Below, in pieces: positions 10,564-62,945 of a stretch of 62,945 bases of DNA (position 1 is the first letter of the stretch; each line of letters opens with the position of its first letter). The DNA is from Myxococcota bacterium (GTDB taxonomy: Bacteria > Myxococcota_A > Bradymonadia > UBA7976 > UBA1532), in contig JAHJCH010000337.1 of NCBI GenBank assembly GCA_018813065.1, positions 1-62,945 of the forward strand. Reading direction: 5' to 3'. The notes below the pieces were generated by a model that was given only the letters and a program-made list of their open reading frames with translations, had not been told where the DNA came from and ran no database searches. The position numbers and the translations under genes were made by a program.

Positions 10564-14133
<3,570 letters not shown>

Positions 14134-16779: not shown

Positions 16780-17901
16780 ATGAGAACAACCCGCCTCGCC
16801 GCCTGGATCACCCTCATCGCCCTCAGCGCCTGCGATCCTGAGCCGCGTCGATCCACCGCCTTCACCCTCGACGCCCAGGCCTTCACCCCGCTGCAGGACG
16901 CCAGCGTGACGGGCGATGGGGGCAGGCGCCCGGCGTTTCGCTTCCCCTTCCTTGAGGGTGAGGACGAGGCTTTGCTGCGGCTGGGGCTGATCAAGCTCTC
17001 CGCTTGTGGGCTGCCCATCACCTTTGATCAAGTCCTGGGCGAGCTGTTCTTCGTCGAGCGCCTGCGTGAGCGACAGATCCGCGTCGAGGCGACCCGGATG
17101 AGCGCCCCTGGGCGGAGCGTGACGAGCCTCTACCCCCTGCTCGACGCGGCGGCAGAGCTGCGCTGCGTCGTCGAGGCCGCGCGCTGCGATGTGGTTTTGG
17201 GCTGCTTGGGCCTTGTCCCTGACGTGCCCTGCGAGCCCACGACCTTTGAGGACTACTGCGGCGAGGGCAAGGCGGTGCTCTGCGCCCAGCTCCTTGATCT
17301 CAGCGCGCCGGTGATGGAGGCGAGGCGCTCCATCACCATGGTGCGCGACTGCGCGCGGCAGGCCGAGGGCAACCACACCTGCCATGTAAACCTCGACGCC
17401 GACTTTCGGCGGGTCGAGTGTGTCTACGCCACGACCTGCGAGGGGGATTTCCCGCGCTGTGACGGCGAGGCGGTGCTCACCTGCGAGGCGGGGCGGGTCT
17501 TTCGTCGGCGCTGCGATCGCTTCGGCGCCGTCTGCGTCGAGGGCGCCTGTGTCTATGGCCCGGATCACCACTGCGCGCAATATGACGGCGCGCTGCGCCG
17601 CTGCGCGGGCGGGCTCGTCGAGGCCTGCGGCGTATTGGAGATCATGGAGTCGGAGTCTGGCCGAGATCGTGGGGCCTTCAGCGGCGGCCTGGACTGCGGC
17701 GCCGAGGGCTTGGCCTGCGAGGGGATCGACGACTGCGCCCTCGACCCGCCAGAGTGTACCCTCCTGGGCAGCGCGGCCTGTGATCACGACGTCGCCACGC
17801 TCTGCGTCAAGGGCCGCGCCTACGCCGTGGACTGTGGGCAGATCGGCGCCAAGTGCGAGGAGAACGGCGGGCGCCTGCGCTGCCGCCTCGATGACTTTTA
17901 G
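16780..17901 (+). CDS. Cys-rich lipoprotein
   Basis: Lipobox IALSAC, many paired Cys, host codon bias. Confidence 0.6.
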   Translation: MRTTRLAAWITLIALSACDPEPRRSTAFTLDAQAFTPLQDASVTGDGGRRPAFRFPFLEGEDEALLRLGLIKLSACGLPITFDQVLGELFFVERLRERQIRVEATRMSAPGRSVTSLYPLLDAAAELRCVVEAARCDVVLGCLGLVPDVPCEPTTFEDYCGEGKAVLCAQLLDLSAPVMEARRSITMVRDCARQAEGNHTCHVNLDADFRRVECVYATTCEGDFPRCDGEAVLTCEAGRVFRRRCDRFGAVCVEGACVYGPDHHCAQYDGALRRCAGGLVEACGVLEIMESESGRDRGAFSGGLDCGAEGLACEGIDDCALDPPECTLLGSAACDHDVATLCVKGRAYAVDCGQIGAKCEENGGRLRCRLDDF

Positions 17902-18839
17902 AGCAGCTCAAAGGCGCGGTTAAACAGCATCAGCCAAGCCGGGACGCTGAGGATCGACAGCCCCAGCGAGGCGATCACCAGCTGGTTGGAGACGGGGACA
18001 TCGCCTCGGGCGCGCTCGACGATGATCGGGATCGCCGTCAACGGCGGCACGATCGTCATCAGGAAGATCAGGAAGGCGATCTTGGGTGGCGGGCGCGTCG
18101 CCAAGAGCAGGGCGAAGATCACCGCCGGGAAGATCACGTTGCGCAGCGCCAAGAAGGCCAAGATCAGCCGCCCGCGCAGCTGCCCCCGGCGCTTGAAGTC
18201 CACATAGAGGTTGCCGCCGATGAGGATCATCACCAAGGGCAAGGCCAAGGCCCCCAGCATCCGCGCCACGTCCAAGATCACCCCAGGCAAGCGCGGCTTA
18301 AGCCCGCTGAGCACCAACAAGATCGACAGCAGCGTGGCGATAAAGATGGGGTTCATGAGCTTTCGCCATTGAAAAGATCGGCGCGCGACCGCCCGAGGAT
18401 AGAATAAATAGGCGCTGTTAAAGAAAAAAGCGGGCGCGAACAGCGTAAAAATAAAAAGCTCTACGAGGATTGTGCTCTCTTTGGGGAAAATCTGAGGAAT
18501 GACCGCTAATGGTAGAAAAATAAAGTTTGGATAGAGCAAACCTAAAGACAGCTCAGGCTTTTTAATAAATATTCTCGCCAAAAAAACCATAAAAGAGATG
18601 ATGACTGTATATCCAAGCCACCATACTGGCAAAATATACCAATGTTTAAGGCGAGATGGGTCGAACCGGGAGAGAATGTTGACGAAGATCAGCGCGGGCA
18701 CGGAGACATCGATGATCAACGGCGAGAGCACGTCGAGGATCTTTAAAGGGACGACGTCGCGCGAGATGATCCAGAAGCCGACGAGGCCGACGGCGAAGAT
18801 AAGCGTGATGGCTTGGAAGGTGGCGAAGAAGAGGTCCAT
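17898..18839 (-). CDS. AEC (auxin efflux carrier / Mem_trans) family transporter
   Basis: About ten hydrophobic helices. The N-terminus MDLFFATFQAITLIFAVGLVGF... and the C-terminal half are typical of the AEC family. The central part is AT-rich (see findings). Confidence 0.75.
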   Translation of the reverse strand: MDLFFATFQAITLIFAVGLVGFWIISRDVVPLKILDVLSPLIIDVSVPALIFVNILSRFDPSRLKHWYILPVWWLGYTVIISFMVFLARIFIKKPELSLGLLYPNFIFLPLAVIPQIFPKESTILVELFIFTLFAPAFFFNSAYLFYPRAVARRSFQWRKLMNPIFIATLLSILLVLSGLKPRLPGVILDVARMLGALALPLVMILIGGNLYVDFKRRGQLRGRLILAFLALRNVIFPAVIFALLLATRPPPKIAFLIFLMTIVPPLTAIPIIVERARGDVPVSNQLVIASLGLSILSVPAWLMLFNRAFELL

Positions 18840-23670: not shown

Positions 23671-23819
23671 AGCGGGCTCCCTTGACTTGAGGCGCCCAAG
23701 ATAAAGCCTCCTCTCCTTTGCGTCGAACGGAAATTGATTCGCGACATCTGGCGCGATTTCGCTTGGCCCTCTCTGGGCCCTGCGCGTTAATAAGACGGCT
23801 CAATTCAAAGGAGAAGCCG

Positions 23820-26800
23820 ATGCGCGCATGGAGAGTTTTACCGTTGTTCCTCCTCACCCTCTGGGGCTGCTCAGGGGGCGAGGAGGAGGCGGCGCCCAGC
23901 TGCCTCGATCTCTGCGTCGAGGGCGCCGTGCAGTGCAACGGCGACAGCCTGGAGACGTGCAGGCGATCCGAGGACGGCTGCCTCGCCTGGTGGGGTGAGC
24001 CCTGCCCTGGGGGGGAGTCGTGCCAAGGGGGGGTCTGCGGCGCCTGCGTCTCCACCTGCGCTCCGGGCACGGCGCGCTGCGAGGGCGACGCGGTGATGCG
24101 CTGCTTCGCCCAGAGCGCGCAGTGCTACATCTGGGGTCCGGCGGAGGCCTGCGCGGCGGGAGAGTCCTGCTCAGCTGGTCAGTGCGCGGCGGGCTGCGTC
24201 GATGAGTGCGCCGAGGGTCAGACGATCTGCGCGGAGGGCGGCGTCAAGGCCTGCGGCGCCTTTGACGCCGATCCCTGTCGAGACTGGGGGCCTGTGACCG
24301 CCTGCGCGGCGGGCGAGAGCTGCTCAAGCGGCGCCTGCGCGGCGGGCTGCGCCGATGAGTGCGTGGAGGGGACCCAGGTCTGCGACGGCGACGCCTTTAA
24401 GCGCTGCGGGGGCTTTGACGCCGATGCGTGTACAGAGTGGAGCGAGCTGACCCCCTGCGGCGTGGGTGAGTCTTGCAGCGCTGGCGCCTGCGCGCCCATC
24501 GAGTCCTGCACCGATGAATGCGTGGAGGGCGTCACGCAGTGCTCCAATGACAGCGCGGGCGTGCGCGCCTGCGGGCAGTTCGATGAGGACCCCTGCGCGG
24601 ACTGGGGGCCGACGGCGCCTTGCGCGGCGGGGGAGACGTGCTCTCAAGGCGCCTGCGCGGCCACCTGCGCCGATGAGTGCACCGCGGGCACACAGATCTG
24701 CGACGGCGACGCCTTTAAGACCTGCGGGCAGTTTGACGCCGATCCCTGCGATGAGTGGAGCGCCTTGACCCTCTGCGCGGAGGGGGAGTCTTGCAGCGCC
24801 GGCGAGTGTAACCCCGTCGCCGCCTGTGAGGATGAGTGCGTCGCTGGCGGCGTGCGCTGCTCCAGCGACAGCGCGGGCGTGCGCAGGTGCGGGCAGTTCG
24901 ACGGCGACGCCTGCGCCGACTGGAGCCCCGTCGAGCCCTGCCCTGCGGGGCAGACGTGCTCCCAGGGCGCCTGCGCGGCCACCTGCGCCGATGAGTGCGT
25001 GGCGGGCAGCCGCGCCTGTGAGGGGGACGCCTTTAAGAGCTGCGGGCAGCTCGACGGCGACGCCTGCTTGGAGTGGAGCGCCTTGACGCCGTGCGCGGCG
25101 GGGGAAACCTGCTCCAATGGACAGTGCTCCGCGACCTGCGTTGACGAGTGCGCTCAAGGCGCGCTGCGCTGCGCGGAGGAGGCCAATGGGCTGATCCGCT
25201 GCGGCCAGGCCGATGATGATCCGTGCCTGGACTGGGGCGAGGTGGCGCTGTGCGCGGCGGGAGAGACGTGCTCAAACCAAGCCTGCGCGGCGGTCTGCTC
25301 CGATGAGTGCGCGGCGGGCAGCCGCCGCTGCGTGGAGGGGGGCGTGGCCCAGTGCGGCGACTTCGACGCCGATGACTGCTTGGAGTGGAGCCGCCCCAGC
25401 CCCTGCGACGTCGGCGAGGTCTGCGCGGGGGGCGTGTGTGAGCAGAGCTGTGAGCACGCCTGCCCGGCGGGGCAGCGCCGCTGCGCGGAGGGGGGCGTGC
25501 AGCTCTGCCTCGACACCAACGGCGACGGCTGCGTGGAGTGGGGCTCGGCGGCGCCCTGTGATGCTGGGCTCATCTGCGACGCGGGCGCCTGCGTCGCCGC
25601 CTGCTCGGACGCCTGCGTCGCGGGCGCGACCCGCTGCGCCTTGGGTGGCTTGGAGCGCTGCGGGGACTTCGACGCCGACGCCTGCCTGGAGTGGTCTGAC
25701 GCGGCGCCTTGCCCCGCCGGTGAGAGCTGCTCCAACGGCGCCTGCGCGGTGACCTGCCAAGACGAGTGCGTCGATGGCCGCGTGCGCTGCGCCGATGGTG
25801 GGGTGCAAGGCTGCGGTGACTTTGACGCCGATCCATGCTTGGAGTGGGGCGTGCCCAGCGCGTGCCCTCAAGGGCTCGTCTGCGACGCGGGCGCCTGCGT
25901 GGCGACCTGCTCCGATGAGTGCGCCGCAGGCTCCGCGCGCTGCCAAGGCGAGGGGGTCGCCACCTGCGGTGACTTCGACGCGGATGACTGCCTGGAGTGG
26001 AGCACGTCCGCGCCTTGCGCGGCGGGGGAGATCTGCGCCGATGGCGCCTGCGCGGCGGTCTGCACCCCCGAGTGCAACGCGGGCGCCGCGCGCTGCGCTG
26101 CGGGCGGCGTGCAGTCCTGCGGTGATCTGGCGATCTGCCCGCGCTGGGGCGCCCTCATCGGCGAGCGCTTCGTGGTGGGCGAGACGCAGCCATGCGCGGA
26201 GGGCACCAGCTGCTCCAACGGCGCTTGCCTCCAGGTCTGCCAAGATGAGTGTACCAGAGGCAATTCTGAGTGTACCCCCAGCGGAGAGCGCCGAATCTGC
26301 GGTGATTTTGACCCTGATGAATGCGCCGAGTGGAGCGAGCCCATTGCGTGCGCGCAAGGCGAGAGCTGCTCGAATGGCGTCTGCGCTTCAGTTTGTCAAG
26401 ATGAGTGTGTTTTAGGCGAGTCTGATTGTGATCAGGCCGATAGCTTCACTGTTTGTGGTGATTTTGATGATGATGATTGCTCGGAGTGGGGGCTTAGCCA
26501 GCCTTGCGAGGCGGGTTGGGTCTGCCAAGACGGCGCTTGTGTGGGCTGCGCCGCCGCCGAGGAGGTCCCCGATGGCGTGGACAATGACTGTGATGACATC
26601 ATCGACGAGGCCCCCCAAGGCACGCTGCCGGGCTGGTGCGTCACCCAGTTCCCCCCCAGCTTGGTGGCGACCGAGGGCTTCCCCAGCCGCCTCAGCTACG
26701 GCCAGATCTGGGCCGAGGGCATGAGCGAGGCGGCGGGCGCGCACCCCGCGATCATGGCGGAGATCGGCTATGGCGCCGACGCGCCCGGCGATGACTGGGC

Positions 26801-27398
26801 CTGGTTTAATGGCCTTTACAATGTTCAAAATGGCTTTAATGACGAATATATGGGTCGATTAATCCCCCTTGAGCGTGGAGATTGGAGCTATGCCTGGCGT
26901 TTCTCAATTGATGGTGGATTGACCTGGGCTTACTGTGACACCTCAGATAACGCGGGGATCGATTACGATGCGGCCTCAGCGGGTCAGCTTTATGTTGGCC
27001 CATCGATCTGGTGGGGCAACCTACAATGGCCCTATGAGACGACCGTCGCTGCGGGCGCGGAGACAGAGCTGATCTTTGGCCGGGTCTATCAAGAGGGCGT
27101 CACCGAGCAGCTTGAAGAGAACCCCGCCTTGTTGGCGGAGGTCGGCTATGGCCCCCTCAACACACACCCTCGCGATGATCTCAACCAGGAGTGGATCTGG
27201 TTTGAGGCGAGCTGGAACGGCAACCGAGGCAATGATGATGAGTACATGGCGACGATGATCGCGCCCATGATCGCCGATGAATATGCGTTTGCGTGGCGCT
27301 ACAGCCTCGACGCGGGCCGCTCCTGGGTCTACGCCGATCGCGACGGCAGCCGCACGGGCTACGATCCGGCCATGTCGGGCTTGATGGTGGTTGAGTAG
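23820..27398 (+). CDS. giant lipoprotein: 17 tandem 8-Cys modules + MopE motif + duplicated C-terminal beta-rich domain
   Basis: AAAGGAG SD, ATG at 23820, lipobox LTLWGC. I counted 17 modules of ~50-53 aa (C.DEC..G...C.......CG.FD.D.C.EWS....C..GE.CS.G.C). These are followed by DGVDNDCDDIIDE and two ~150-aa copies containing W.WF......N.(D/N)DEYM.... Confidence 0.8.
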   Translation: MRAWRVLPLFLLTLWGCSGGEEEAAPSCLDLCVEGAVQCNGDSLETCRRSEDGCLAWWGEPCPGGESCQGGVCGACVSTCAPGTARCEGDAVMRCFAQSAQCYIWGPAEACAAGESCSAGQCAAGCVDECAEGQTICAEGGVKACGAFDADPCRDWGPVTACAAGESCSSGACAAGCADECVEGTQVCDGDAFKRCGGFDADACTEWSELTPCGVGESCSAGACAPIESCTDECVEGVTQCSNDSAGVRACGQFDEDPCADWGPTAPCAAGETCSQGACAATCADECTAGTQICDGDAFKTCGQFDADPCDEWSALTLCAEGESCSAGECNPVAACEDECVAGGVRCSSDSAGVRRCGQFDGDACADWSPVEPCPAGQTCSQGACAATCADECVAGSRACEGDAFKSCGQLDGDACLEWSALTPCAAGETCSNGQCSATCVDECAQGALRCAEEANGLIRCGQADDDPCLDWGEVALCAAGETCSNQACAAVCSDECAAGSRRCVEGGVAQCGDFDADDCLEWSRPSPCDVGEVCAGGVCEQSCEHACPAGQRRCAEGGVQLCLDTNGDGCVEWGSAAPCDAGLICDAGACVAACSDACVAGATRCALGGLERCGDFDADACLEWSDAAPCPAGESCSNGACAVTCQDECVDGRVRCADGGVQGCGDFDADPCLEWGVPSACPQGLVCDAGACVATCSDECAAGSARCQGEGVATCGDFDADDCLEWSTSAPCAAGEICADGACAAVCTPECNAGAARCAAGGVQSCGDLAICPRWGALIGERFVVGETQPCAEGTSCSNGACLQVCQDECTRGNSECTPSGERRICGDFDPDECAEWSEPIACAQGESCSNGVCASVCQDECVLGESDCDQADSFTVCGDFDDDDCSEWGLSQPCEAGWVCQDGACVGCAAAEEVPDGVDNDCDDIIDEAPQGTLPGWCVTQFPPSLVATEGFPSRLSYGQIWAEGMSEAAGAHPAIMAEIGYGADAPGDDWAWFNGLYNVQNGFNDEYMGRLIPLERGDWSYAWRFSIDGGLTWAYCDTSDNAGIDYDAASAGQLYVGPSIWWGNLQWPYETTVAAGAETELIFGRVYQEGVTEQLEENPALLAEVGYGPLNTHPRDDLNQEWIWFEASWNGNRGNDDEYMATMIAPMIADEYAFAWRYSLDAGRSWVYADRDGSRTGYDPAMSGLMVVE
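23880..26550 (+). repeat. ~150-160-bp in-frame tandem modules (17 copies) of the giant Cys-rich lipoprotein
   Basis: Module boundaries were read from the protein (each starts C.(D/T/S)(E/A)C and ends G.C...). Confidence 0.85.
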
Positions 27399-27417
27399 AG
27401 CGGTGGTTGAGTAAGGC

Positions 27418-28632
27418 TTACTCGGTGGGCTGATCCGCGTCGGCCTCGGCGCGGGCGGAGATCATCTCCGCGTTGGGCAGGCAGACCTTGGCCTCGACGG
27501 CGGCGGCGCCGCTCTCGCCGATAAAGCGCGGCGTGACGAGATCCAAGGTCACCTCCAAGTCCGCGCAGTCACCGTTGATCTCATGGGCCTTGCTGACGCA
27601 GATGCCTGTCGTGGGGGCCAGCGGATCTTCTGCACAGAAGGTGGGCGCCTTGCCCGCCAGGTCGGGGCAGTAGCCCTCACAGGCTTGCGTGCAGAAGCCA
27701 GCCTCATGGCAGAATTGGCCGCTGGTGCAGTCGCCCTCAGCGGCGCAAGGATCGCCGATAAAGCTCAGCGCCACGTTATTGAGCAGCGGGAAGACGGCCT
27801 TATCGCCGAGGTGGGTGAACTGATAACCCTCCTCCTTGAGCTTGAGGATCAAGGGCTCGATGGCGTCGATGGTGGTCTGGTGGATGTCATGGAAGAGGAG
27901 GACGCCGCCCTCGCGCTGGCGGACCTGGTGCATGGTCCAGTCGCTCATGCTGCCGCGGAACGCATCGGGGACGTGCTGGAACGTGCTGGCCTTGCAGTAG
28001 CCGCCGCCCGCCTTATAGCACCAGTCGGCGCTGTCGATGTGCCAGCCGGTGATCTTGTAGCCACGTTCGCGGACCTTGTCGGCGCTCATGCAGCTGGAGG
28101 AGCCATAGGGGAAGCGGAAGAAGCTGGGGGCGCCACCAGCGCCCTCGATGAGCGCCGTGACCTTGTCGATCTCGGAGATCACGCGCGCCTCATCCTGGAG
28201 CTTCATGTTGGGGTGGCTCCAGGTGTGGTTGCCTACGGTGAAGAGGGGATCGGCGACCATCTCTTCGAGCAAGGCGAGGCGGGCCTCACCCTCGACGCGG
28301 TTGACAAAGAAGGTGGCGGGCACCTCATGACGGCGGAGGATCTCGAGCAGCTGTGGCGTGGTGCTGAGGCTGGGGCCGTCGTCAAAGGTGAAGGTGACGA
28401 AGCGGTTAAAGCCGCTCTGATCAGGGACGACCACCCCGGAGCAGGTGGAGGTGTCGCCCTTGAGCTCCTCCATCTCCACGAAGCTTTGGTTCCAAAGCGC
28501 GGGATCCTCGCGAGGCGCCATCACGTCATCGGGCGACGTGGAGGCCTCCTCAGCGCAGGCCAATAAACTCAAGCTGAGCGGTAAGATGAGCGTGAGGCGG
28601 GTGAGCCTTTGCATGGCGACTCTTCCTTTCAT
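27418..28632 (-). CDS. polysaccharide deacetylase (NodB-type) lipoprotein with a Cys-rich C-terminal tail
   Basis: Lipobox LSLLAC. FTFDDGPS and HTWSHPN NodB motifs. Its ATG overlaps the TGA of the upstream gene (ATGA). Confidence 0.85.
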   Translation of the reverse strand: MKGRVAMQRLTRLTLILPLSLSLLACAEEASTSPDDVMAPREDPALWNQSFVEMEELKGDTSTCSGVVVPDQSGFNRFVTFTFDDGPSLSTTPQLLEILRRHEVPATFFVNRVEGEARLALLEEMVADPLFTVGNHTWSHPNMKLQDEARVISEIDKVTALIEGAGGAPSFFRFPYGSSSCMSADKVRERGYKITGWHIDSADWCYKAGGGYCKASTFQHVPDAFRGSMSDWTMHQVRQREGGVLLFHDIHQTTIDAIEPLILKLKEEGYQFTHLGDKAVFPLLNNVALSFIGDPCAAEGDCTSGQFCHEAGFCTQACEGYCPDLAGKAPTFCAEDPLAPTTGICVSKAHEINGDCADLEVTLDLVTPRFIGESGAAAVEAKVCLPNAEMISARAEADADQPTE

Positions 28633-30725
28633 TTTTGGGGGACATCGCCGGTTTTAGCAAAACCTGAACCTAATTTCGAGAGCGCATGACGTAGCCGCGC
28701 GCGCTGCTCAGGATCAATGGGCTGAGCGCCAAAGCGCGCGCGCTCGTATGTGTCGCAGATCTCCTCCGCCAACGAGAGCCCCGGCGCGCCTCGCGCCCTC
28801 AGCAGCGCTAAAATTTCAACGTGTGTCATATGATTTGTGATCATCAATCCCCTTTGAGCATAAAAGTCAATCATCATTTGATATAGGTCCTTTTTAATTT
28901 TTTCTTTTTTGAGCGGGTGAGGATGATCAACAGCATTAATGGCAATTATTTTCTCTTTTATCGCGATAATTATCGCGACAATTGAGATGATTAGAATCAA
29001 TATGGCCATAATTAACTTTAAATCAATATCAAGTTTCCCTATGTAGTTAATTACTGAAAGTATGTGTTGATATTTATTGTCAACGCTATTATTTTTAATA
29101 AACTCATGCCATTTTATATTAATAAAATCAATATAGTTGGATATTGGCTGATAAAATAAACCGTTTTGTGTGATATGGCTCGTCGGTGTTGGGTCAAAGA
29201 TAACCCATCCATATTTATCTGTCCATATTTCAACCCAAGAGTGTGCATTTGCCCCGCTCATAATTAAAAAATTTCCTTGAGGATTCCATCTGCCACCATA
29301 AAATCCATTTATATTTCTAGATGGAATGCCCATTTGCCTCAATAATATAATAGCAACCGTGCTAAAGTATTCACAATGACCTGATTTTGTTCGCAAGAAA
29401 AAATCATTTACATTTTTATTTTTTGAAGAGGTGCTATATTTATACTGCTTGAAAGCAGTTGATATATTATCTGTTACATCATTCAGAGTTTTAGATTGTT
29501 TTTTTATGCTTTCAGATAAAACCTGAAAATCATCGTGTATGTCTGACGGCAACTGCAAATATTTTTGTTTATTTTGTGGGAACTTAAGAGAGTTAATCGA
29601 TATATCACTTAAACCATAACCATATCCGCTATTTTTAGCAATTACTCTATATGAAAAGTGATTGTTCATATAATCTAGATCTAAACTCTCTCTAAAAAAA
29701 TCATTTTCTTGATCATAGCTAATCGTATAATAGTTCTGATCGTTTTCGTCAAAAATAACAAGTGGATCTTCAGATGGCTTAAATAATATATTTGATTTTA
29801 TGTCAATGACATCAATATCAAATTGTTCTAATTTTGTTATACCGCTGTAATCTCGCTGATTTATATGAGCATCCCGATCAGCTCGATATTGGAAGTATTT
29901 TTTTTGTGATTTATACCATGATTTCCCATCAAAAAAATCAAGACTTACTCCTTTCCAATAAGAATTATCTCGATATTCATGGTTTTTTATTACTATGACA
30001 GGGTTGTAGTTATTTTTAATTAGACCAAATTCACCAATTCTAACCTCATCAGAAAACCCAGATATCTTGTTTTGATTTATTTGACTAAGTTTGTCAAACT
30101 TATTTACTCTTGGTATAAGTGTGAATATTAAAAATGAGAGGGCAATGATCAGAAATGAAGTAAAAACACTAATTATATTAAATTTCTTGCTTACTAATTT
30201 TTTTGAATGAAGGACTTTATTAATTTTAACCCTTTTTCCTTTTAATGAATCTCTATATTTTAAAAGATAGTTATCTTCCATCTCTTTCTTAAGCTGAAAC
30301 ATGATAATACTAAAGACTGAAAACATCGAGTAAAAACTTAATGTAATGAGATATATCGCATTTGAACCCATTATGCCGGATAATCCGATATTTATTAAAG
30401 ATGATATATATAATTTTGCGTAATTAGAGTTTATTTTTTCGCTAAACGAAAATTTTAATGTCGTAATTGAGAGTATCAATATAATTACTTTTAAAAAATC
30501 AGACCTAGATAGATAAAATATGACAATTGATATAGATAAGGCCACATAAAACAACTTGAATAAATTTAAAATTGGTCTATCACTTTTTGGGTCTGAACTC
30601 CAGCTGTGAATCAATAATAAAATTGATATTAAAGGAAATATCGGTGATATCCAGCTTGTTAATGAGATTAGAGAAATCCCAACCATTAAATATGTCGATA
30701 GTTTATGCGCAATAATGAATTTCAT
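28629..30725 (-). CDS. transglutaminase TgpA-like membrane protein (DUF3488 + transglutaminase core)
   Basis: N-terminal multi-TM region. Cys-His-Asp core: SGHCEYFSTV, HSWVEIW, GWVIFDPT. AT-rich except for the last ~60 codons. Confidence 0.85.
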   Translation of the reverse strand: MKFIIAHKLSTYLMVGISLISLTSWISPIFPLISILLLIHSWSSDPKSDRPILNLFKLFYVALSISIVIFYLSRSDFLKVIILILSITTLKFSFSEKINSNYAKLYISSLINIGLSGIMGSNAIYLITLSFYSMFSVFSIIMFQLKKEMEDNYLLKYRDSLKGKRVKINKVLHSKKLVSKKFNIISVFTSFLIIALSFLIFTLIPRVNKFDKLSQINQNKISGFSDEVRIGEFGLIKNNYNPVIVIKNHEYRDNSYWKGVSLDFFDGKSWYKSQKKYFQYRADRDAHINQRDYSGITKLEQFDIDVIDIKSNILFKPSEDPLVIFDENDQNYYTISYDQENDFFRESLDLDYMNNHFSYRVIAKNSGYGYGLSDISINSLKFPQNKQKYLQLPSDIHDDFQVLSESIKKQSKTLNDVTDNISTAFKQYKYSTSSKNKNVNDFFLRTKSGHCEYFSTVAIILLRQMGIPSRNINGFYGGRWNPQGNFLIMSGANAHSWVEIWTDKYGWVIFDPTPTSHITQNGLFYQPISNYIDFINIKWHEFIKNNSVDNKYQHILSVINYIGKLDIDLKLIMAILILIISIVAIIIAIKEKIIAINAVDHPHPLKKEKIKKDLYQMMIDFYAQRGLMITNHMTHVEILALLRARGAPGLSLAEEICDTYERARFGAQPIDPEQRARLRHALSKLGSGFAKTGDVPQK

Positions 30726-31759
30726 TAATTTATCCTCAAATTTTCATCTATTAAATACATTGATTGAATATATGACCATAGATTAGAGCTGCTATGCGCA
30801 ATTAAAATATCAACATTTGCGGGTTTAATGAAACTATCTTCAATCTCTTCACTAAAACTAAGAAATGACATAAACTTTAAAAAGTCATCTTCGTGACCTT
30901 CATCAAGATGTATTGTCTCTTGGTTCATAATTAGTTTAATTTTATGTTGTTTTAGTAATTTAATGACAACGCTTGAAGCTAAGCTGATAAGATATTCAAC
31001 ATCTTCTTGATTTTCATTTAGATCCTTTATTTTTGTATTTAAAAAAACGGATAATATTTTTTTATCCTCCGTTATATGATCAACAACGTATAATTCATTT
31101 TTTTTCGCAGATATTTTCCAATTTATTAGATGAAGCGAATCATTTTCCCTATATTTTCTAATTAAAAATGGATCATTTTCTTTGATTTTATTTTTATTGA
31201 TTAGTTGTTCAAAGAACAAATCACTTAAATCGATCAGTCTTGGGAAGACAATTAAATCTGATCCTTGGCTAAACCTGTAAGTCTTCAAAAAGAAGGAAAA
31301 TGGAAATCGAGTGCCAATTTTAATGTATTTATATTTGTATAAGCCTCTTTTGGGGATTTCAAATCGATAATTTGTCTCTTGGTTTGTTTTAGGCGGTATC
31401 TTGAGGAAATAACATCTCTTGGCGATATGGCTTTGCTCAATCCCGTCCTCTACCTGCACGCTGAACGAGGGCATCCAACGCTTCTCATTGCGCAGATCAA
31501 TGGAGACGAGGAAGGGCGTCGCCGCGAAGACTTGACTGGGGAGGCGCCGCGTGGCCTTGAGGCCCTTGAGGGTCCACTCTGAGAGCAGCCCGCTGACGAT
31601 GATCATCGCGAGGAGATGACACAGCAGCAGGTGAAGCACGTCGTTGCCCGTGCTCACCGCGCCGAAGCCAATGGTGAGGGTGATGACGCCGAGGTAGCGC
31701 CCCTCTTGGGTGAGGTGCAGGCTGCGGCGTGGGCGATCAGCGCGCGAGCGCCGCCTCAG
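30725..31759 (-). CDS. DUF58-family protein (5' end unresolved)
   Basis: Two N-terminal TM helices, then YRENDSLHLINWKISAKKNELYVVDH, which is typical of DUF58. The track ORF extends to 31984 but overlaps rpsN. Between the rpsN stop and the first TM helix I found only in-frame CTG codons (31759, 31720). Confidence 0.65.
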   Translation of the reverse strand: MRRRSRADRPRRSLHLTQEGRYLGVITLTIGFGAVSTGNDVLHLLLCHLLAMIIVSGLLSEWTLKGLKATRRLPSQVFAATPFLVSIDLRNEKRWMPSFSVQVEDGIEQSHIAKRCYFLKIPPKTNQETNYRFEIPKRGLYKYKYIKIGTRFPFSFFLKTYRFSQGSDLIVFPRLIDLSDLFFEQLINKNKIKENDPFLIRKYRENDSLHLINWKISAKKNELYVVDHITEDKKILSVFLNTKIKDLNENQEDVEYLISLASSVVIKLLKQHKIKLIMNQETIHLDEGHEDDFLKFMSFLSFSEEIEDSFIKPANVDILIAHSSSNLWSYIQSMYLIDENLRIN

Positions 31760-31790
31760 CCCAGGCCATGAGCCGCGGTGAGGTGGACCC

Positions 31791-32096
31791 TCACCAGCTG
31801 GCCTTGACGACCCCAGGGAGGTTGCCCTTGAGCGCCTCTTGACGCAGGGAGATGCGTGAGAGCCCAAACTTGCGGTAGTAGCCGCGCGCGCGGCCAGTAA
31901 GGTGACAACGATTGACGATCCGCGTGGCGCTGGCGTCACGCGGCATCTTCGCCAGCTTGGCCTGAGCCTCCCACTTCTCCTCAAGGGTCGTCTCAGGGTT
32001 CTTGATGACCGCGATCAGCGCTTGACGGTGCTCGGCGTGCTTAGCGGTGAGCGCGCGGCGCTGCTTGTTCTTCGCGATGCTGCTCTTCTTAGCCAT
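31791..32096 (-). CDS. rpsN: 30S ribosomal protein S14 (long, non-zinc form)
   Basis: MAKKSSIAKNKQRR...NRCHLTGRARGYYRKFGLSRISLRQEALKGNLPGVVKASW is a full-length S14 signature. Confidence 0.93.
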   Translation of the reverse strand: MAKKSSIAKNKQRRALTAKHAEHRQALIAVIKNPETTLEEKWEAQAKLAKMPRDASATRIVNRCHLTGRARGYYRKFGLSRISLRQEALKGNLPGVVKASW

Positions 32097-32234
32097 ATCG
32101 AGGGGGCTCCCTTGGGGGCTTACGCCCGAGATTCAAAATCGCCGCGCATTGTGCATAAGTGTCTCTCCCTTGGCAACCTCTGTTTGCGCGACGATCCACA
32201 GAGGCCAAGGCGCCTGATCTCAGCGGCTTAGGAC

Positions 32235-33236
32235 TTAGATCTCAGGGTTGCGCTTGCGCACCCGCACGCCCGGCGTGGTGGCGGGCTCTTCCTCGGCCTC
32301 ATCGCTCGACGACGCCTCGACGCGCAACGCCTCAGCGGCGAGCGGCCAGCGCCAGAGCTTCTCGCCCGTCTCCTCGATCATCCCCGAGGTGAAGGGCTTG
32401 GAGATGCCATATTGCTCCCGACCGATCCGCTGCAGCGGCTCCGTCACGCCCCCAATCGCCTTGGCGCGGGAGAGGTTGAAGTGCTCCAAGACCTCAGAGC
32501 GGGTCAGCTGACCACGCGCCTTGAGCAGCTCCAAGAAGGCGCGAGACTTCTCCGGCAGATCCGCGTCGTTGAGCAGCTGCTCCATCTGCGCCGCGGTCGG
32601 CAAGGCCCCCATGTCCTCCTCGCCGCCCTCCAGCTGCGTAGGATTGTCGGTCGTGAGCGTCGTCGAGGGCGCCCCGCCCGTCCAACGCCACGCGCGATCA
32701 CCCCTCACGGTGATGGCCTCGTATGGGATCTGCACCCCACGCACCGGCGCCCAGCGGCCAATCGAGCCGGTGATCCCCCCCATGGCCTTGGGCACTGTGA
32801 TGCCCAGCTCGTCCATCGCATCGTTGATGGTCAAGGTCCCTTTGCGCTGCACCAGCTCAAGGAAGCGCTTGGAGCGCTCAGGCAGCTGCTCGACGAACTT
32901 CTCGTAGCGCTCCTCATCGCTGAGGCTCTGATCGATCGGCTGCTGCGGCTTGGGCGTGCGGCGCATCACCGGGGGCGCGGGCCTGGGCGCCTCAAGGCGG
33001 GGGGGCGGCGCGGGTGGGTAGCCCAGCGCAGGGCGAGGGGCGCTGCCAAGCTTGGCAGGCATGAGGGGGCTGGGGCTGAGGGGGCTGGGGCTGGGGCTGG
33101 GGGCGAGGGGGGCAGCGGCGACGGGCTTGGTGGCGCGAGGCGCCTGTTGGCGGAGGGCGTCGAGGAGGCGCAGCACGGCCTCGTGTACGGCGACGTCTTT
33201 GAGCGCTTCAAGGTCAACTGTAATGTGAATAGACAT
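32235..33236 (-). CDS. hypothetical protein: Pro-rich linker + two related ~75-aa winged-helix-like modules
   Basis: ATG at 33234-33236 (MSIHITVDLEAL). There is an internal duplication: ERSKRFLELVQRKGTLTINDAMDELGITVPKAMGGITG...AWRW versus EKSRAFLELLKARGQLTRSEVLEHFNLSRAKAIGGVTE...LWRW. Confidence 0.55.
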   Translation of the reverse strand: MSIHITVDLEALKDVAVHEAVLRLLDALRQQAPRATKPVAAAPLAPSPSPSPLSPSPLMPAKLGSAPRPALGYPPAPPPRLEAPRPAPPVMRRTPKPQQPIDQSLSDEERYEKFVEQLPERSKRFLELVQRKGTLTINDAMDELGITVPKAMGGITGSIGRWAPVRGVQIPYEAITVRGDRAWRWTGGAPSTTLTTDNPTQLEGGEEDMGALPTAAQMEQLLNDADLPEKSRAFLELLKARGQLTRSEVLEHFNLSRAKAIGGVTEPLQRIGREQYGISKPFTSGMIEETGEKLWRWPLAAEALRVEASSSDEAEEEPATTPGVRVRKRNPEI

Positions 33237-33398
33237 GGACGATCCTGAGATTGGGAGTCGCTCTTGAGCGCGGGCTGAAGCGGCGCTCAATGTTCGCGGG
33301 AGCAGACCGGGCATCTCTATCAGATCAAAGGGTAAATGACGAGTGTTTTATGAGATCATCCGCAAAACATCGCCCCCTCGTGGGCTCACTCATCACCC

Positions 33399-34877
33399 AT
33401 GGAGGCTCGCTCTCGTCTTATGCGCTCAATCTGCCAAAGCCAAACGCTCTGCCTCCTCCTCGGCGCCTCGCTCTGGGCGTGTCAAGAGGCGCCCGATCAG
33501 CGCCTTGAGATCGAGGGGGAGGAGATCGACGCCAGCGCGCGCCTTGATCTCGGGGCCAGGCTTGACGCCGCGCTCATGGACGCCGCCTTGGACACGCTGC
33601 TCATCCCCGACACAGCTGTGATCCCCGACGCGTTGCTTATCTCCGACACGGCTGAGATCCCCGACGCGGCTGAGATCCCCGACGCGGCTGAGATCCCCGA
33701 CGCGGCTGAGATCGCTGAGGAGGTCTGTGATGGGATCGACAATGATTTAGATGGGCTGATCGATGAGGCGCTCGCCAACATCTGCGGGGGCTGCGGTCCA
33801 ATCCCAGAGGGCGGCTGTCAGAGCTGGCGGATCAGCTTGCCAGAGGGGCTCATCCAGCCCAGCCGGGTCCTCAGCCTCCAAGGGCGCGTGCTGCGTGAGG
33901 CGGCCTTGGACATCGAGGGCGCGCGCTGCACGCTCTTGGAGATCGGCGCCGATGGCGGAGGCGCGCACCTCGGCGTGGTGGATATCCAAAGCCCCCAGGC
34001 TGCGCTTCAGCTGGTGCCCTATGTCGATGACGTCGAGGGGGTGATCTATACCCCGTCGCCTGACACGCCGCTGCGGCTCTATGAGGGCGACGCGCCGCTG
34101 CGGATCTGGGCGGGCGGCGGCGCGGTCATCCCCGCTTTTGAGGTCAACACGCGCGGGCCAGGCACGATGGCCGACGTGGAGGGGCTGGAGGGCGTGATGG
34201 ACAAGGCCACGGGGGCCATGCGCGGGGAGACGCCCCTGAGCTGGCGCCCCGGTGAGGGCGCGCTGACGCTCTACATCGGCGGCAGCCGTCCCCTCTTCTC
34301 CCGGCCCGAGTATCAGTCCATCGCGCACTATCAGCTCAACGCGCGCTTGGTCGATGATGGCCGCTGCGCCTTGCCTGATCTCTTCGACGGGGGGCTGCTC
34401 GACAGCTCAGTCTGGGTCTATCTCCAGCGCGCCCGCCTCCAGCCGCTTGTCTTTGGGCCACACGCGGCGCTGATCGAGACGAGCAGCCGCGTCGAGGCGC
34501 GCCGCGCCGGGGTCTTGGAGGGCGATGAGCCCTCGCCCGTGCGCTTTGAGGCGCCCTCGCCCGTCGAGCCGCAGATCACGCCCGGCGCGCCGCTGCGGGT
34601 GGCCTGGGCGCCGCTGCCCGAGGGGCCTGGGCCGCTGCGGGTGAGCTTGACGTTGCATGATCGCGCCGCTGGCGTGAGCCGTCAGCTGGCCTGTGAGGTG
34701 GTGGACCCCAGCCGTGGCGCCTTGATCTTGCCCGAGGAGATGACCACAGCGTGGCCGACAGGGGAGGGCGACACTCGCCAGATCTCCCTGAGCTGGGTGA
34801 CACACAGCGCGACGCTGCCCGCCCCCGATGAGGGCACCTTGACCCGCTCGATCTCAACCCTGCTGCGCCTGCCTTAA
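33399..34877 (+). CDS. secreted/lipoprotein with AEIPDA repeats and one MopE-like motif
   Basis: Signal with LWAC lipobox, 18-bp repeats at 33615-33719, and a CDGIDNDLDGLIDE motif. Confidence 0.6.
   Translation: MEARSRLMRSICQSQTLCLLLGASLWACQEAPDQRLEIEGEEIDASARLDLGARLDAALMDAALDTLLIPDTAVIPDALLISDTAEIPDAAEIPDAAEIPDAAEIAEEVCDGIDNDLDGLIDEALANICGGCGPIPEGGCQSWRISLPEGLIQPSRVLSLQGRVLREAALDIEGARCTLLEIGADGGGAHLGVVDIQSPQAALQLVPYVDDVEGVIYTPSPDTPLRLYEGDAPLRIWAGGGAVIPAFEVNTRGPGTMADVEGLEGVMDKATGAMRGETPLSWRPGEGALTLYIGGSRPLFSRPEYQSIAHYQLNARLVDDGRCALPDLFDGGLLDSSVWVYLQRARLQPLVFGPHAALIETSSRVEARRAGVLEGDEPSPVRFEAPSPVEPQITPGAPLRVAWAPLPEGPGPLRVSLTLHDRAAGVSRQLACEVVDPSRGALILPEEMTTAWPTGEGDTRQISLSWVTHSATLPAPDEGTLTRSISTLLRLP
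33615..33719 (+). repeat. 18-bp in-frame repeat (AEIPDA), ~6 units
   Basis: gctgagatccccgacgcg occurs 3 times perfectly (33651-33704), flanked by degenerate units. Confidence 0.85.
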
Positions 34878-46945: not shown

Positions 46946-47978
46946 ATCGCTGATTTTTCTATCCGTTATCTTATTGCCTGCTTCAGCCTGGGCCAACGCG
47001 GGGACGGCCTTGATGTGGACACAGTTCGGCCATCTCTTCATCGGCAACCTGATCATCGGGCTGCTTGAGGGGGGGCTCCTGGTCTGGCTCTACAAGACCC
47101 CCGCGCGCCGCTCATTGATCTCCATGATCCTGGCCAACTACTTCTCCATGTGGGTCGGCGCGATGGCGATCAACAACGTGGATCTGAGCCCGCTGGAGAT
47201 CCCCACCCTGCGGCTGGTGGTGTGGGGGCTGCTGCCTGCCTTCTTCTTTATCACGGTGCTGCTGGAGTCGCCCTTCGTCGCCGTGGCCTTTGACGCCAAG
47301 GGCTGGGCGCGGATCACCGGCGCGGCGCTGCTGACCCACGTCATCAGCTATGGGCTGCTGATTTTGTGGTACGCGCCGACGCACCAGACGAACCTCATCG
47401 ATCAGGAGATCGTGCCCGCCGCGGCGCTCCTCAAGGACACGCGGGCGGACATCTACTTCCTCTCCGCCGAGCGCAAGCAGATCCTCAAGCTCAGCGCGCC
47501 GCTGACGCGCGTGGAGGTGGCCTACACCTTTGAGACGGGCGAGAAGGGGGTGGGCCTGTACTTCGAGGGGGGCGCGCTGTGGTCGGCCTTGGAGAACGAG
47601 GAGGCGCCCAGGCGCGTGTTGACGTTGGAGGGCCAGCGCTGCACGCCGCAGGGCGCCCGAGATGAGCCAAGGGGGCTGAGCCAGGATCTGGGCGCTGCGA
47701 AGTTCGTAGTCAATACAGGCACTTGGGCTGCGGAGGGCCTTAACCTCTTTGATCGACCTTGGCAGCCCGACGCCGCCTCGCCGCGTAAGTTATTGGCCCA
47801 CTACGCCTTTGACACGGTCTTCGCCCGCTGGGGCATCTACCCGCGCGTCACGCTCCTTCCCAGCGGCCTCATCCTCTTCAGCGCCCGCGATCGCGTCTTG
47901 GTCTTGGACCACGCGCAGGCGCGCCTCGCCGAGATCGAGCGCGGCTTCAGCCCCGCCGCCTGTGTCGCCGCGCCCTGA
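46932..47978 (+). CDS. hypothetical membrane protein (4-5 TM N-terminal half, soluble C-terminal half)
   Basis: ATGATG at 46932 (MMKAKSLIFLSVILLPASAWA). Overlaps the permease stop by 14 nt. Confidence 0.5.
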   Translation: MMKAKSLIFLSVILLPASAWANAGTALMWTQFGHLFIGNLIIGLLEGGLLVWLYKTPARRSLISMILANYFSMWVGAMAINNVDLSPLEIPTLRLVVWGLLPAFFFITVLLESPFVAVAFDAKGWARITGAALLTHVISYGLLILWYAPTHQTNLIDQEIVPAAALLKDTRADIYFLSAERKQILKLSAPLTRVEVAYTFETGEKGVGLYFEGGALWSALENEEAPRRVLTLEGQRCTPQGARDEPRGLSQDLGAAKFVVNTGTWAAEGLNLFDRPWQPDAASPRKLLAHYAFDTVFARWGIYPRVTLLPSGLILFSARDRVLVLDHAQARLAEIERGFSPAACVAAP

Positions 47979-58291: not shown

Positions 58292-58493
58292 CGTGGGGCC
58301 TCGTGACAGAGAGTGGACCCTAATATCAAAGGACGCGGGTCGAGGACAGCGCGGCTCAGCCCTCCGCGCGACGCCTTCGCGATCACCCACACAGGTCAAT
58401 GGCGCTCAACCCACGCGACGCTCACCGCAGGTCTGGTGAAGCGAGGGCTGACATAAGCGGCGGAAATAGGTGGCACTGGATTTACTCAATGAT

Positions 58494-58904: not shown

Positions 58905-59025
58905 AAATCCTCCACAGGCGAAAACGGCGCATATGCGCATCTTCGGACAAAATTAAAAATTACTCAAAAAAATGAAAGAACAATTCGATAGATTAACAAG
59001 CTAATTCCAAACTGTAATTACTAAA

Positions 59026-61033: not shown

Positions 61034-62945
<1,912 letters not shown>

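What the first reader, a model, noticed from the sequence alone, without database searches (positions are those of the whole stretch)
28805..31420. 2.6-kb AT-rich block inserted in frame across two adjacent genes (DUF58 and TgpA transglutaminase)
Composition changes abruptly inside the open reading frames. By hand count, 28741-28800 has 43/60 G+C (72%) while 29041-29100 has 13/60 (22%). The last ~60 codons of the TgpA-like gene (28629-28805) and the first ~100 codons of the DUF58 gene (31420-31759) are host-like GC-rich, while everything between is AT-rich. Both frames stay open, the catalytic Cys/His/Asp and DUF58 motifs are intact, and the TAATG junction between the two genes is preserved. 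This looks like replacement of the interior of a two-gene cassette by a distant low-GC orthologous segment, giving mosaic genes, rather than a whole-gene island. Such in-frame chimeras across a ~50% GC difference are unusual.
Basis: seen in the sequence. Interest (0 to 1): 0.65.

Follow-up and report, generated by a model that had tools for sequence, protein, structure and literature searches.

The report
AT-rich in-frame mosaic in two genes
In a GC-rich myxobacterium from a biofilm, the middle 2.6 kb of two adjacent, still-functional membrane-protein genes is extremely AT-rich while the gene ends are normal; the block is real in several assemblies, but no donor can be found and how it arose is unresolved.

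Summary
Window 28810-31396 has 28.6% G+C; the rest of the window has 66%. One edge is sharp to the codon, inside the TgpA-like gene. The other edge spans about 9 codons inside the DUF58-like gene. Both frames stay open and collinear with orthologues.

It is not an assembly chimera. Contigs from three runs of two samples cross both edges, and two further NCBI MAG contigs encode the same proteins.

The GC-rich gene ends are native. They match syntenic rpsN-DUF58-TgpA loci of related Myxococcota at the usual within-clade identity.

The AT-rich interior is only 25-31% identical to anything among about 15 billion proteins. Even so, its best hit is the same relative that best matches the flanks, and it keeps motifs specific to the host's clade. 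The "distant, other-phylum donor" reading is therefore not supported.

Codon-position G+C matches native DUF58-TgpA genes of a 31% G+C genome. Polymorphism is mostly synonymous and 3-4 times denser than in the flanks.

Best reading (about 0.5): replacement of the interior by a segment from an unsampled, strongly AT-shifted relative. Main rival (about 0.25): localised AT-biased divergence of the native genes in place.

The parts
28810..31396 (.). AT-rich block (28.6% G+C; GC1/2/3 = 0.34/0.26/0.26) inside a 66% G+C genome
28629..30725 (-). TgpA-like gene, 698 aa (TgpA_N membrane domain, transglutaminase core, DUF4129). Codons 1-639 are AT-rich and codons 640-698 are GC-rich.
30725..31759 (-). 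DUF58-like gene (~344 aa, start codon uncertain). Codons 1-113 are GC-rich; codons from ~122 onward are AT-rich.
28632..28809 (-). Native GC-rich 3' end of TgpA (second half of DUF4129). It is 58.5% identical over 41 aa to the L004 orthologue.
31421..31759 (-). Native GC-rich 5' end of DUF58 (two predicted membrane helices plus the start of the domain). It is 46-56% identical to clade orthologues.
28806..28814 (-). Junction 1: codon 639 TTA then codon 640 GCG, collinear with orthologues, just upstream of the conserved RGAPGL motif
31396..31422 (-). Junction 2: patchy zone GCC AAG / AGA TGT TAT / TTC CTC AAG / ATA / CCG lying on the conserved motif AK(K/R)CYFLK(V/I)P
29193..29375 (-). Catalytic triad codons inside the AT block: Cys451 (29373-29375), His495 (29241-29243), Asp511 (29193-29195). 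The spacing of 44 and 16 residues fits the family.
30195..30293 (-). Clade-specific TgpA loop kept in AT-rich DNA: LKKEMEDNYLLKYRDSLKGKRVKINKVLHSKKL. Host clade: LKREMEENYLLKY.DSL.GRPV...RVLNSRKL. Other Myxococcota: ...LLKH-SDD..SEKV. Some other phyla have a gap here.
31283..31315 (-). Clade-specific DUF58 motif GTRFPFSFFLK kept in AT-rich DNA (other Myxococcota have STKFPFALFRK)
30723..30727 (-). TAATG overlap of the DUF58 stop and the TgpA start. It lies inside the block and is not shared by relatives L001 and L003, which have 3-5 nt gaps.
31791..32096 (-). rpsN (ribosomal protein S14), directly upstream. The rpsN-DUF58-TgpA order is shared with relatives. Identical RNA contigs cover 31737-32103.

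Best explanation
The locus is the native rpsN-DUF58-TgpA locus of a GC-rich Myxococcota bacterium. About 2.6 kb of it, from DUF58 codon ~120 to TgpA codon 639, is a collinear, in-frame, extremely AT-rich version of the same two genes.

Shown: the ends are native. The interior is hyper-divergent but of the host clade's type. It has the composition of genes long resident in a ~30% G+C genome. It is under purifying selection with the transglutaminase triad intact, so both chimeric proteins are probably functional.

Inferred: the interior was brought in by homeologous (orthologous) replacement from an unsampled, strongly AT-shifted and fast-evolving relative of the host clade. The crossovers fell in conserved motifs (KKCYFLK in DUF58, upstream of RGAPGL in TgpA). 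The mechanism would be microhomology-assisted or illegitimate recombination, with selection for function keeping only in-frame, collinear products. The segment has not ameliorated. The excess of mostly synonymous polymorphism would then reflect sequence out of compositional equilibrium in its new genome.
For: - The block is real and single-copy in independent assemblies.
- One edge is razor-sharp. The other is patchy and sits on the most conserved local motif, as expected for recombination breakpoints.
- GC1/2/3 of the block (TgpA .33/.27/.26; DUF58 .36/.23/.24) are almost the same as in the native MoxR-DUF58-TgpA genes of a 31% G+C genome, locus L084 (.33/.29/.27.32/.29/.22).
- The GC-rich ends show within-clade identity, while the interior is about half as similar.
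- Host-clade signature residues: 6 of 27, against 1.3 expected by chance and ~5% in non-members (p about 0.002). Myxococcota signatures: 7 of 27.
- Clade-specific motifs are kept in both genes.
- Profile scores lean towards the host clade, unlike outgroup sequences.
- 9 of 13 polymorphisms are synonymous.
- SNP density is 3.4-4.4 times that of the flanks (p = 0.0003-0.002).
- The dinucleotide signature of the block lies outside the range of host 2.6-kb chunks.
Against: - No donor or close relative of the AT-rich version exists among about 15 billion proteins; the best hit is 29-31%. None was found in plasmids or phages, nor in the same metagenomes at 80% nucleotide identity or more.
- No relative with a genome near 30% G+C is known in this clade. 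The lowest among the top 80 genomic loci is 39%, a Bdellovibrionota MAG.
- DNA of 28% and 68% G+C encoding proteins about 27% identical has no usable homology. Two in-frame, collinear junctions therefore need a very rare event.
- No integrase, tRNA or terminal repeats are present.
- The interior is less similar to the host clade than TgpAs of other phyla are. The donor lineage would thus have had to evolve unusually fast.
Confidence: 0.5

Rival explanations
1. Divergence in place. The native DUF58-TgpA interior underwent localised, strongly AT-biased, accelerated evolution. Possible causes are a bounded mutational process, or a segment that escaped the recombination or biased gene conversion that keeps the genome GC-rich. 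The flanks stayed normal. No foreign DNA is involved, so frame and collinearity come for free.
For: - The interior is of the host clade's type and its best hit is the same genome as for the flanks.
- There is no donor anywhere.
- Both junctions are perfectly collinear and in frame, with no homology available for recombination.
- Polymorphism in the block is raised 3-4 fold today.
- The branch is extremely long yet keeps clade synapomorphies, which is the pattern of acceleration rather than deep divergence.
- The block's dinucleotide signature is nearer to the host than to the other genomes tried (weak).
Against: - No known bacterial mechanism gives a 2.6-kb mutational domain with a codon-sharp edge inside a gene.
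- The block is unique among 165 related loci and within the 62.9-kb window.
- Four host-clade signature columns carry the outgroup residue (P, F, R, L), which AT-biased change would not readily produce.
- CGT Arg codons are absent, although CGC is the host's main Arg codon and CGT would be the first transition product.
- Composition at all three codon positions already equals that of a 31% G+C genome. That requires saturation while the flanks stayed untouched.
Confidence: 0.25
2. An old divergent allele, in the manner of a 'replacement island'. The AT-rich interior is one of several very divergent allelic forms of this locus. These forms move between strains by ordinary homologous recombination in the conserved gene ends, as at O-antigen or pyoverdine loci. 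This explains the junctions in present strains but not how the first mosaic arose.
For: - The gene ends are conserved and the interior is hyper-divergent.
- Diversity in the block is higher than in the flanks among co-occurring populations.
- TgpA has a large extracytoplasmic domain (PDB 6G49 is annotated as the Pseudomonas enzyme). Such a domain is a plausible target of diversifying selection. This last point is my inference.
Against: - No alternative allele joins the same flanks in any of the three metagenomes, and there are no loose ends at the junctions.
- No second allele class exists in the databases.
- Polymorphism within the block is mainly synonymous, so there is no sign of ongoing diversifying selection.
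Confidence: 0.1
3. One reading: the donor is a phylogenetically distant low-G+C organism from another phylum.
For: - Overall identity of the interior to everything is 25-31%, in the inter-phylum range.
- A neighbour-joining tree puts it on a long basal branch near low-G+C and Bdellovibrionota sequences.
- The raw p-distance to one low-G+C homologue (P0099) ties for smallest.
Against: - Truly low-G+C homologues score lower than GC-rich Myxococcota despite sharing the composition.
- They lack the clade motifs LLKY.DSL.G and GTRFPF.FF.K.
- Signature residues and profile scores point to the host clade.
- The tree position is what long-branch attraction would produce.
Confidence: 0.07
4. Assembly or binning chimera that joins a low-G+C organism's genes to the host contig.
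For: The source is a metagenome. AT-rich organisms are present in the same samples.
Against: - Both junctions are reproduced in per-run Logan assemblies of three runs from two samples, and in three separate NCBI MAG contigs.
- Contig depths equal those of the neighbouring host contigs.
- No 31-mer can be shared across a codon-sharp 40-point G+C step.
- Junctions that are in frame and collinear in two genes would be an absurd coincidence for a chimera.
- No separate AT-rich contig carries the block.
Confidence: 0.02

Closest known systems
Mosaic genes made by interspecies homologous recombination (for example penA/pbp mosaics in Neisseria and Streptococcus; from general knowledge)
   Same: There are in-frame, collinear blocks of foreign-looking sequence inside an otherwise native gene. 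The breakpoints are sharp and the protein stays functional.
   Different: Known mosaics come from donors with roughly 5-25% nucleotide divergence and similar G+C, so homologous recombination explains them, and the donors are identifiable. Here the G+C step is about 38 points, protein identity is about 27%, two adjacent genes are spanned, and no donor exists in the databases.
Atypical-composition genomic islands and amelioration (the Lawrence and Ochman framework; from general knowledge)
   Same: Composition at all three codon positions is foreign, with no amelioration.
   Different: Islands comprise whole genes and usually have tRNA, integrase or repeat boundaries. This block begins and ends inside genes, has no such boundaries, and replaces the homologous interval exactly.
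Replacement islands, meaning divergent allelic loci of low G+C (for example Pseudomonas aeruginosa O-antigen or pyoverdine loci; from general knowledge)
   Same: The chromosomal position is the same, the borders are conserved, the interior is very divergent and lower in G+C, and local diversity is raised.
   Different: Those loci show several allele classes across strains. Only one form is seen here.
TgpA of Pseudomonas aeruginosa (PDB 6G49/6G4H) and MoxR-DUF58-transglutaminase operons (for example locus L084; the bifidobacterial PFNA cluster, PMC8430577)
   Same: The domain order is TgpA_N, transglutaminase core with a Cys-His-Asp triad, then DUF4129, with a DUF58 gene directly upstream.
   Different: In this Myxococcota clade no MoxR gene lies next to the pair and rpsN precedes it. 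Only 79 residues align to the solved structure by sequence.
Repeat-induced point mutation in fungi, as an analogue for the in-place rival (from general knowledge)
   Same: It produces AT-rich blocks with sharp borders inside a GC-richer genome, made in place.
   Different: RIP acts on duplicated DNA, makes only C-to-T transitions and destroys reading frames. Here the frames are intact, selection is purifying, no repeat was detected within or at the edges of the block, and the process is unknown in bacteria.

Membership tests
TgpA-type membrane transglutaminase (TgpA_N + Transglut_core + DUF4129) | N-terminal multi-pass membrane domain (Pfam TgpA_N, formerly DUF3488) | tested here: met
   PF11992 scores 42.5 bits against a cut-off of 30. 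The protein aligns end to end with orthologues.
TgpA-type membrane transglutaminase (TgpA_N + Transglut_core + DUF4129) | Transglutaminase core with a Cys-His-Asp triad | tested here: met
   PF01841 scores 74.8 bits. C451, H495 and D511 are invariant columns. The match to PDB 6G49 has E = 8e-19.
TgpA-type membrane transglutaminase (TgpA_N + Transglut_core + DUF4129) | C-terminal DUF4129 domain | tested here: met
   PF13559 scores 38.1 bits over residues 614-682. The domain runs straight across the composition junction at residue 639/640.
TgpA-type membrane transglutaminase (TgpA_N + Transglut_core + DUF4129) | Enzymatic activity and expression | not testable with these tools
   There is only indirect support: 9 of 13 SNPs are synonymous. 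No RNA contigs cover the block.
DUF58 (vWA-like partner of MoxR and TgpA systems) | Pfam DUF58 domain above the gathering score | tested here: inconclusive
   PF01882 scores 17.1 bits against a cut-off of 23.4, and there is no NCBIfam hit. However, the protein is homologous and syntenic to proteins that carry DUF58 hits, and NCBI names it a DUF58 protein.
Classical horizontally acquired genomic island | Whole genes bounded by a tRNA, an integrase, or direct or inverted repeats | tested here: not met
   The edges lie inside genes. There are no meaningful terminal repeats, and no tRNA in the window.
Mosaic gene by homologous recombination | An identifiable donor lineage, and nucleotide homology at the breakpoints | tested here: not met
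   The best homologue of the interior is 29-31% identical. No similar DNA occurs in the same samples.
Mosaic gene by homologous recombination | In-frame, collinear replacement with native flanks | tested here: met
Assembly chimera | Junctions absent from independent assemblies, or a depth step at the junctions | tested here: not met
   The junctions are present in three runs from two samples and in three NCBI MAG contigs. Contig depths equal those of the neighbours. Raw reads were not available.
Diversity-generating retroelement target | A template repeat near the variable region, and adenine-specific changes over about 100-200 nt | tested here: not met
   No repeat of the region was found within 28300-31900. 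The block is 2.6 kb, and its changes are not adenine-specific. A reverse transcriptase elsewhere in the genome was not searched for.

The most novel reading that the evidence does not exclude
The AT-rich block was made in place. A bounded chromosomal segment of a GC-rich bacterium has been driven to about 28% G+C by a local, still active, AT-biased rise in substitution rate, or by local escape from the force that keeps the genome GC-rich. Selection preserved two reading frames and the enzyme's active site throughout. That would be a kind of regional compositional evolution not described in bacteria.
Probability: 0.25. Interest if true: 0.9.

Novelty: new variant of a known kind. Interest (0 to 1): 0.62.

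Why it matters
Mosaic genes are normally explained by homologous recombination between fairly similar sequences. Here the two partners differ by about 38 points of G+C and share about 27% protein identity. Yet the product is collinear and in frame in two adjacent genes, and it is maintained by selection.

Either explanation is informative:
- If it is a transfer, function-preserving orthologous replacement can occur with essentially no nucleotide homology. It would also imply an unsampled, strongly AT-shifted relative of Bradymonadia-like Myxococcota.
- If it arose in place, it would reveal a local compositional or mutational regime unknown in bacteria. That bears directly on the long-standing question of what maintains high G+C.

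It is also a practical warning. Composition-based island finders and gene-level taxonomic classifiers would mislabel these genes as foreign, although their sequence signatures are of the host's own clade.

Tried and rejected
1. Terminal direct or inverted repeats, tRNA and Rfam elements at the edges: none found.
2. A neighbour-joining tree on amino acids and on Dayhoff-6 recoding: distances are saturated at 0.73-0.76 and the block sits on a long basal branch. I judged it uninformative because of long-branch attraction.
3. Signature-residue test on DUF58: only 2 and 5 signature columns, too few to use.
4. Protein search with the GC-rich DUF58 N-terminus alone returned nothing, not even the protein itself. 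This is a limit of the word index, and the search was wasted.
5. A search for closer relatives of the host through rpsN in metagenome contigs. The best was 74% identical (L086), syntenic and GC-rich, but no closer at DUF58 or TgpA, so the event cannot be dated.
6. A search for strains with a different interior. Two other runs hold near-identical flank words; laid on the window, their identical contigs cover only rpsN with the DUF58 5' end, and a short stretch at 33481-33631. There are no loose ends at the junctions.
7. Plasmid and phage origin: only 21-30% partial matches.
8. The Muto-Osawa/Lawrence-Ochman codon-position lines first suggested partial amelioration, because GC1 and GC2 looked too low for the observed GC3. 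I rejected this after calibration: native TgpA and DUF58 genes of low-G+C genomes (L059, L084) show the same offsets.
9. Dinucleotide signature: the block lies outside the host's range but is nearer to the host than to the other genomes tried. Inconclusive.
10. A first run of the DUF58 profile scoring returned stale numbers because of a command error. It was repeated correctly.
11. Literature searches for comparable cases and for DUF58-TgpA function gave nothing directly relevant beyond the PFNA operon papers.
Full report
**1. The observation**

The window averages 65% G+C, or 66.4% without the block. In 200-nt windows G+C is 0.58-0.62 up to 28800. It falls to 0.22-0.36 between 28800 and 31400 and is back at 0.59-0.70 from 31400. 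Nothing else in the 62.9 kb comes near this. The next lowest patch is 1.1 kb at 40%.

Two long minus-strand ORFs run through the block:
- a 698-aa protein at 28629-30725 with Pfam TgpA_N, Transglut_core and DUF4129;
- a DUF58-like protein at 30725 to about 31759.

Their flanks are a polysaccharide deacetylase (27418-28632) and rpsN (31791-32096).

Read codon by codon, the TgpA edge is sharp: codon 639 is TTA and codon 640 is GCG, at window 28809/28810. The DUF58 edge spans codons 113-122 (31396-31422) and is patchy: GCC AAG / AGA TGT TAT / TTC CTC AAG / ATA / CCG.

Inside the block GC1/GC2/GC3 are 0.34/0.26/0.26. In neighbouring host genes they are roughly 0.60-0.72/0.46-0.60/0.81-0.86. The amino-acid composition has therefore shifted too, not only the codon choice. 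The block uses TTA 41 times and ATA 47 times. Host ORFs in the window use them about 2 and 1 times per 1000 codons.

No other ORF of 60 aa or more lies wholly inside the block; only a 67-aa ORF (31379-31582, +) overlaps its upper edge. Thirteen of the 14 promoter-like matches in 27300-33400 fall inside the block, as expected for AT-rich DNA.

**2. It is not an artefact**

The sequence comes from a biofilm metagenome. Per-run Logan contigs of three runs from two samples cross both edges. X1 and X2 each hold one 8,710-nt contig covering 24969-33678. X3 holds two contigs that meet at 30003, inside the block. Contig depths match the neighbouring host contigs.

The same proteins are also on NCBI MAG contigs of 12,131 and 47,366 nt, annotated as Myxococcota bacterium.

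At 80% identity no other contig in these samples resembles the block. Raw reads were not available, so read-pair support remains to be checked.

**3. The ends are native**

Relatives carry the same gene order rpsN-DUF58-TgpA: loci L003, L004, L006, L009, L010 and L086. They are GC-rich or evenly composed along both genes.

None of the 165 loci fetched shows an internal drop of 0.22 or more in G+C, except the window's own copy.

| Segment | Window vs clade | Within the clade |
|---|---|---|
| DUF58 residues 1-113 (GC-rich) | 46-56% | 54-73% |
| TgpA residues 641-698 (GC-rich) | 28-50% | 26-49% |
| DUF58 residues 114-344 (AT-rich) | 25-30% | 39-57% |
| TgpA residues 1-640 (AT-rich) | 25-28% | 46-58% |

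These figures are. rpsN is 66-74% identical to these relatives. The host is therefore a deep, poorly sampled branch of this clade.

**4. Where the interior comes from**

The interior has no close relative anywhere. In the 5.8-billion-cluster search the next hit after the protein itself is 28% identical. For the DUF58 interior it is also 28%.

An exhaustive HMMER pass over 1.84 billion representatives with only the AT-rich TgpA part gives 29-31% at best. The best hit there, P0056, is the TgpA of L004. That MAG also gives the best hits for rpsN and for both GC-rich ends. The top ~50 genomic loci are Myxococcota or deltaproteobacteria-type MAGs; the first from another phylum ranks 49th.

Homologues from truly low-G+C organisms (P0099, P0146, P0042) score lower, even though they share the composition.

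The interior keeps clade-specific motifs:
- In TgpA, LKKEMEDNYLLKYRDSLKGKRVKINKVLHSKKL matches the host clade's LKREMEENYLLKY.DSL.GRPV...RVLNSRKL, with R replaced by K. Other Myxococcota have LLKH-SDD..SEKV, and some other phyla have a gap here.
- In DUF58, GTRFPFSFFLK matches the clade's form. Other Myxococcota have STKFPFALFRK.

The interior matches 6 of 27 host-clade signature residues and 7 of 27 Myxococcota signatures. Chance would give 1.3-1.5, non-members match about 5%, and members match 75-80% (p about 0.001-0.002).

Profile scores lean to the host clade:
- TgpA interior: 329.5 bits against the host-clade profile and 324.3 against the other-Myxococcota profile. Outgroup sequences score 24-62 bits lower on the host-clade profile.
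- DUF58 interior: +12 bits for the host clade. Outgroups give -38 to +1. The host's own GC-rich N-terminus gives +10.

Yet in absolute terms the interior is further from Myxococcota profiles than TgpAs of other phyla are. Four clade-signature columns carry the outgroup residue. A neighbour-joining tree is saturated and uninformative.

So the interior is a hyper-accelerated derivative of a host-clade-type DUF58-TgpA. It is not a gene from a distant phylum.

**5. Composition and population data**

L084 is a 31% G+C genome with a native MoxR-DUF58-TgpA operon. Its TgpA has GC1/2/3 of .33/.29/.27 and its DUF58 .32/.29/.22. The block has .33/.27/.26 and .36/.23/.24. The block thus looks like genes at equilibrium in a genome of about 30% G+C, with no amelioration.

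Among the assemblies, 13 variant sites fall in the 2.6-kb block. None falls in the 3.4 kb of immediate flanks. Over 43 kb of flanks, sample S2 differs from the window at 0.9-1.1 sites per kb, against 3.8 per kb in the block. That is 3.4-4.4 fold (p = 0.0003-0.002).

Nine of the 13 variants are synonymous, and the four replacements include conservative ones such as D/E and Q/K. This indicates purifying selection on both chimeric genes. The block therefore predates the split of these populations and encodes working proteins.

A sediment metatranscriptome from another study holds contigs identical to 31737-32103. This is rpsN mRNA continuing into the DUF58 5' end. No RNA covers the block.

**6. 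Mechanism**

Shown: native ends; a collinear in-frame interior; host-clade type; extreme divergence; composition like a 30% G+C genome; purifying selection; raised polymorphism; no mobile-element boundaries; no donor in proteins, plasmids, phages or the same samples.

Inferred, and my best reading (about 0.5): a single homeologous replacement by DNA from an unsampled, strongly AT-shifted relative. Three points support it:
- A codon-sharp edge is what a breakpoint looks like.
- The other edge is a patchy zone lying exactly on the conserved motif AK(K/R)CYFLK(V/I)P, as heteroduplex repair at a short homology would leave.
- The composition is that of long residence in a low-G+C genome.

Its weak points are the missing donor and the near-absence of nucleotide homology. 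Together these make two function-preserving junctions a very rare event.

The main rival (about 0.25) is divergence in place. It explains collinearity, clade type, the missing donor and the raised polymorphism without any transfer. However, it needs an unknown process with a codon-sharp boundary. It also fits poorly with the outgroup-state residues and with the absence of CGT codons.

Three further rivals carry less weight: an old allelic 'replacement island' (about 0.1), a distant-phylum donor (about 0.07) and an assembly chimera (about 0.02).

**7. Comparison with what is known**

The genes belong to the TgpA-type transglutaminase family. All three Pfam domains and the triad are present, and the sequence matches PDB 6G49. 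The upstream gene belongs to the DUF58 partner family by homology and synteny. Its Pfam score is below the cut-off, so that membership is inconclusive by this criterion.

As an evolutionary object, the block works like a mosaic gene, but it fails two of that class's usual features: an identifiable donor and usable homology. It is not a classical genomic island. I rate it a new variant of a known kind. The in-place reading is the most novel possibility that the evidence does not exclude.

Noticed in passing
window 28805-31420 compared with 7001-53000: SNP density between the assemblies of the two samples is 3.4-4.4 times higher in the AT block than in 43 kb of flanks. The immediate 3.4 kb of GC-rich flank has no SNPs. 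Nine of the 13 block SNPs are synonymous.
   Followed up: partly
window 31737-32103: A sediment metatranscriptome from a different study (run X4) holds two contigs 100% identical to rpsN plus the first ~55 nt of the DUF58 region. The organism is therefore active elsewhere, and rpsN transcripts run into DUF58.
   Followed up: partly
window 31745-31790: The DUF58 start codon is unclear. No ATG, GTG or TTG lies between the rpsN stop and the conserved N-terminus, although a CTG sits at 31759. Gene callers give 293, 304 or 310 aa, starting inside the conserved membrane helices.
   Followed up: partly
window 58451-59575: A 1.1-kb patch of 40% G+C holds a 148-aa Cys-rich ORF (58494-58940, minus strand). 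It looks like an ordinary small acquired gene, with the whole gene low in G+C.
   Followed up: no
window 17898-18839: A 313-aa multi-pass membrane ORF (transporter-like) has distinctly lower G+C than its neighbours, down to 35% in 150-nt windows. Here the whole gene is affected, not an intragenic block.
   Followed up: no
window 46451-46975: This dip to 41% G+C is the acidic low-complexity tail (runs of D and E) of a 716-aa permease-like ORF plus the intergenic spacer. Contig depth spikes here in run X1 (116 against about 24).
   Followed up: partly
window 23718-27398 and 61968-62844: There is a 1,226-aa secreted-looking protein built of many Cys-rich repeats of about 45 aa. At the window's end lies a highly repetitive stretch with overlapping ORFs on the minus strand, one PS-rich and one R-rich. 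Both regions cause many short spurious contig joints.
   Followed up: no
window 12628-12675 and 8696: Sample S2 (run X3) shows a tight cluster of 11 differences near a contig end, and a 6-nt deletion. This is probably a variable repeat or a paralogue-induced assembly difference.
   Followed up: no
L084 3765-8163: A 31% G+C metagenomic genome has a canonical MoxR-DUF58-TgpA operon. The host's clade instead has rpsN-DUF58-TgpA with no adjacent MoxR.
   Followed up: partly
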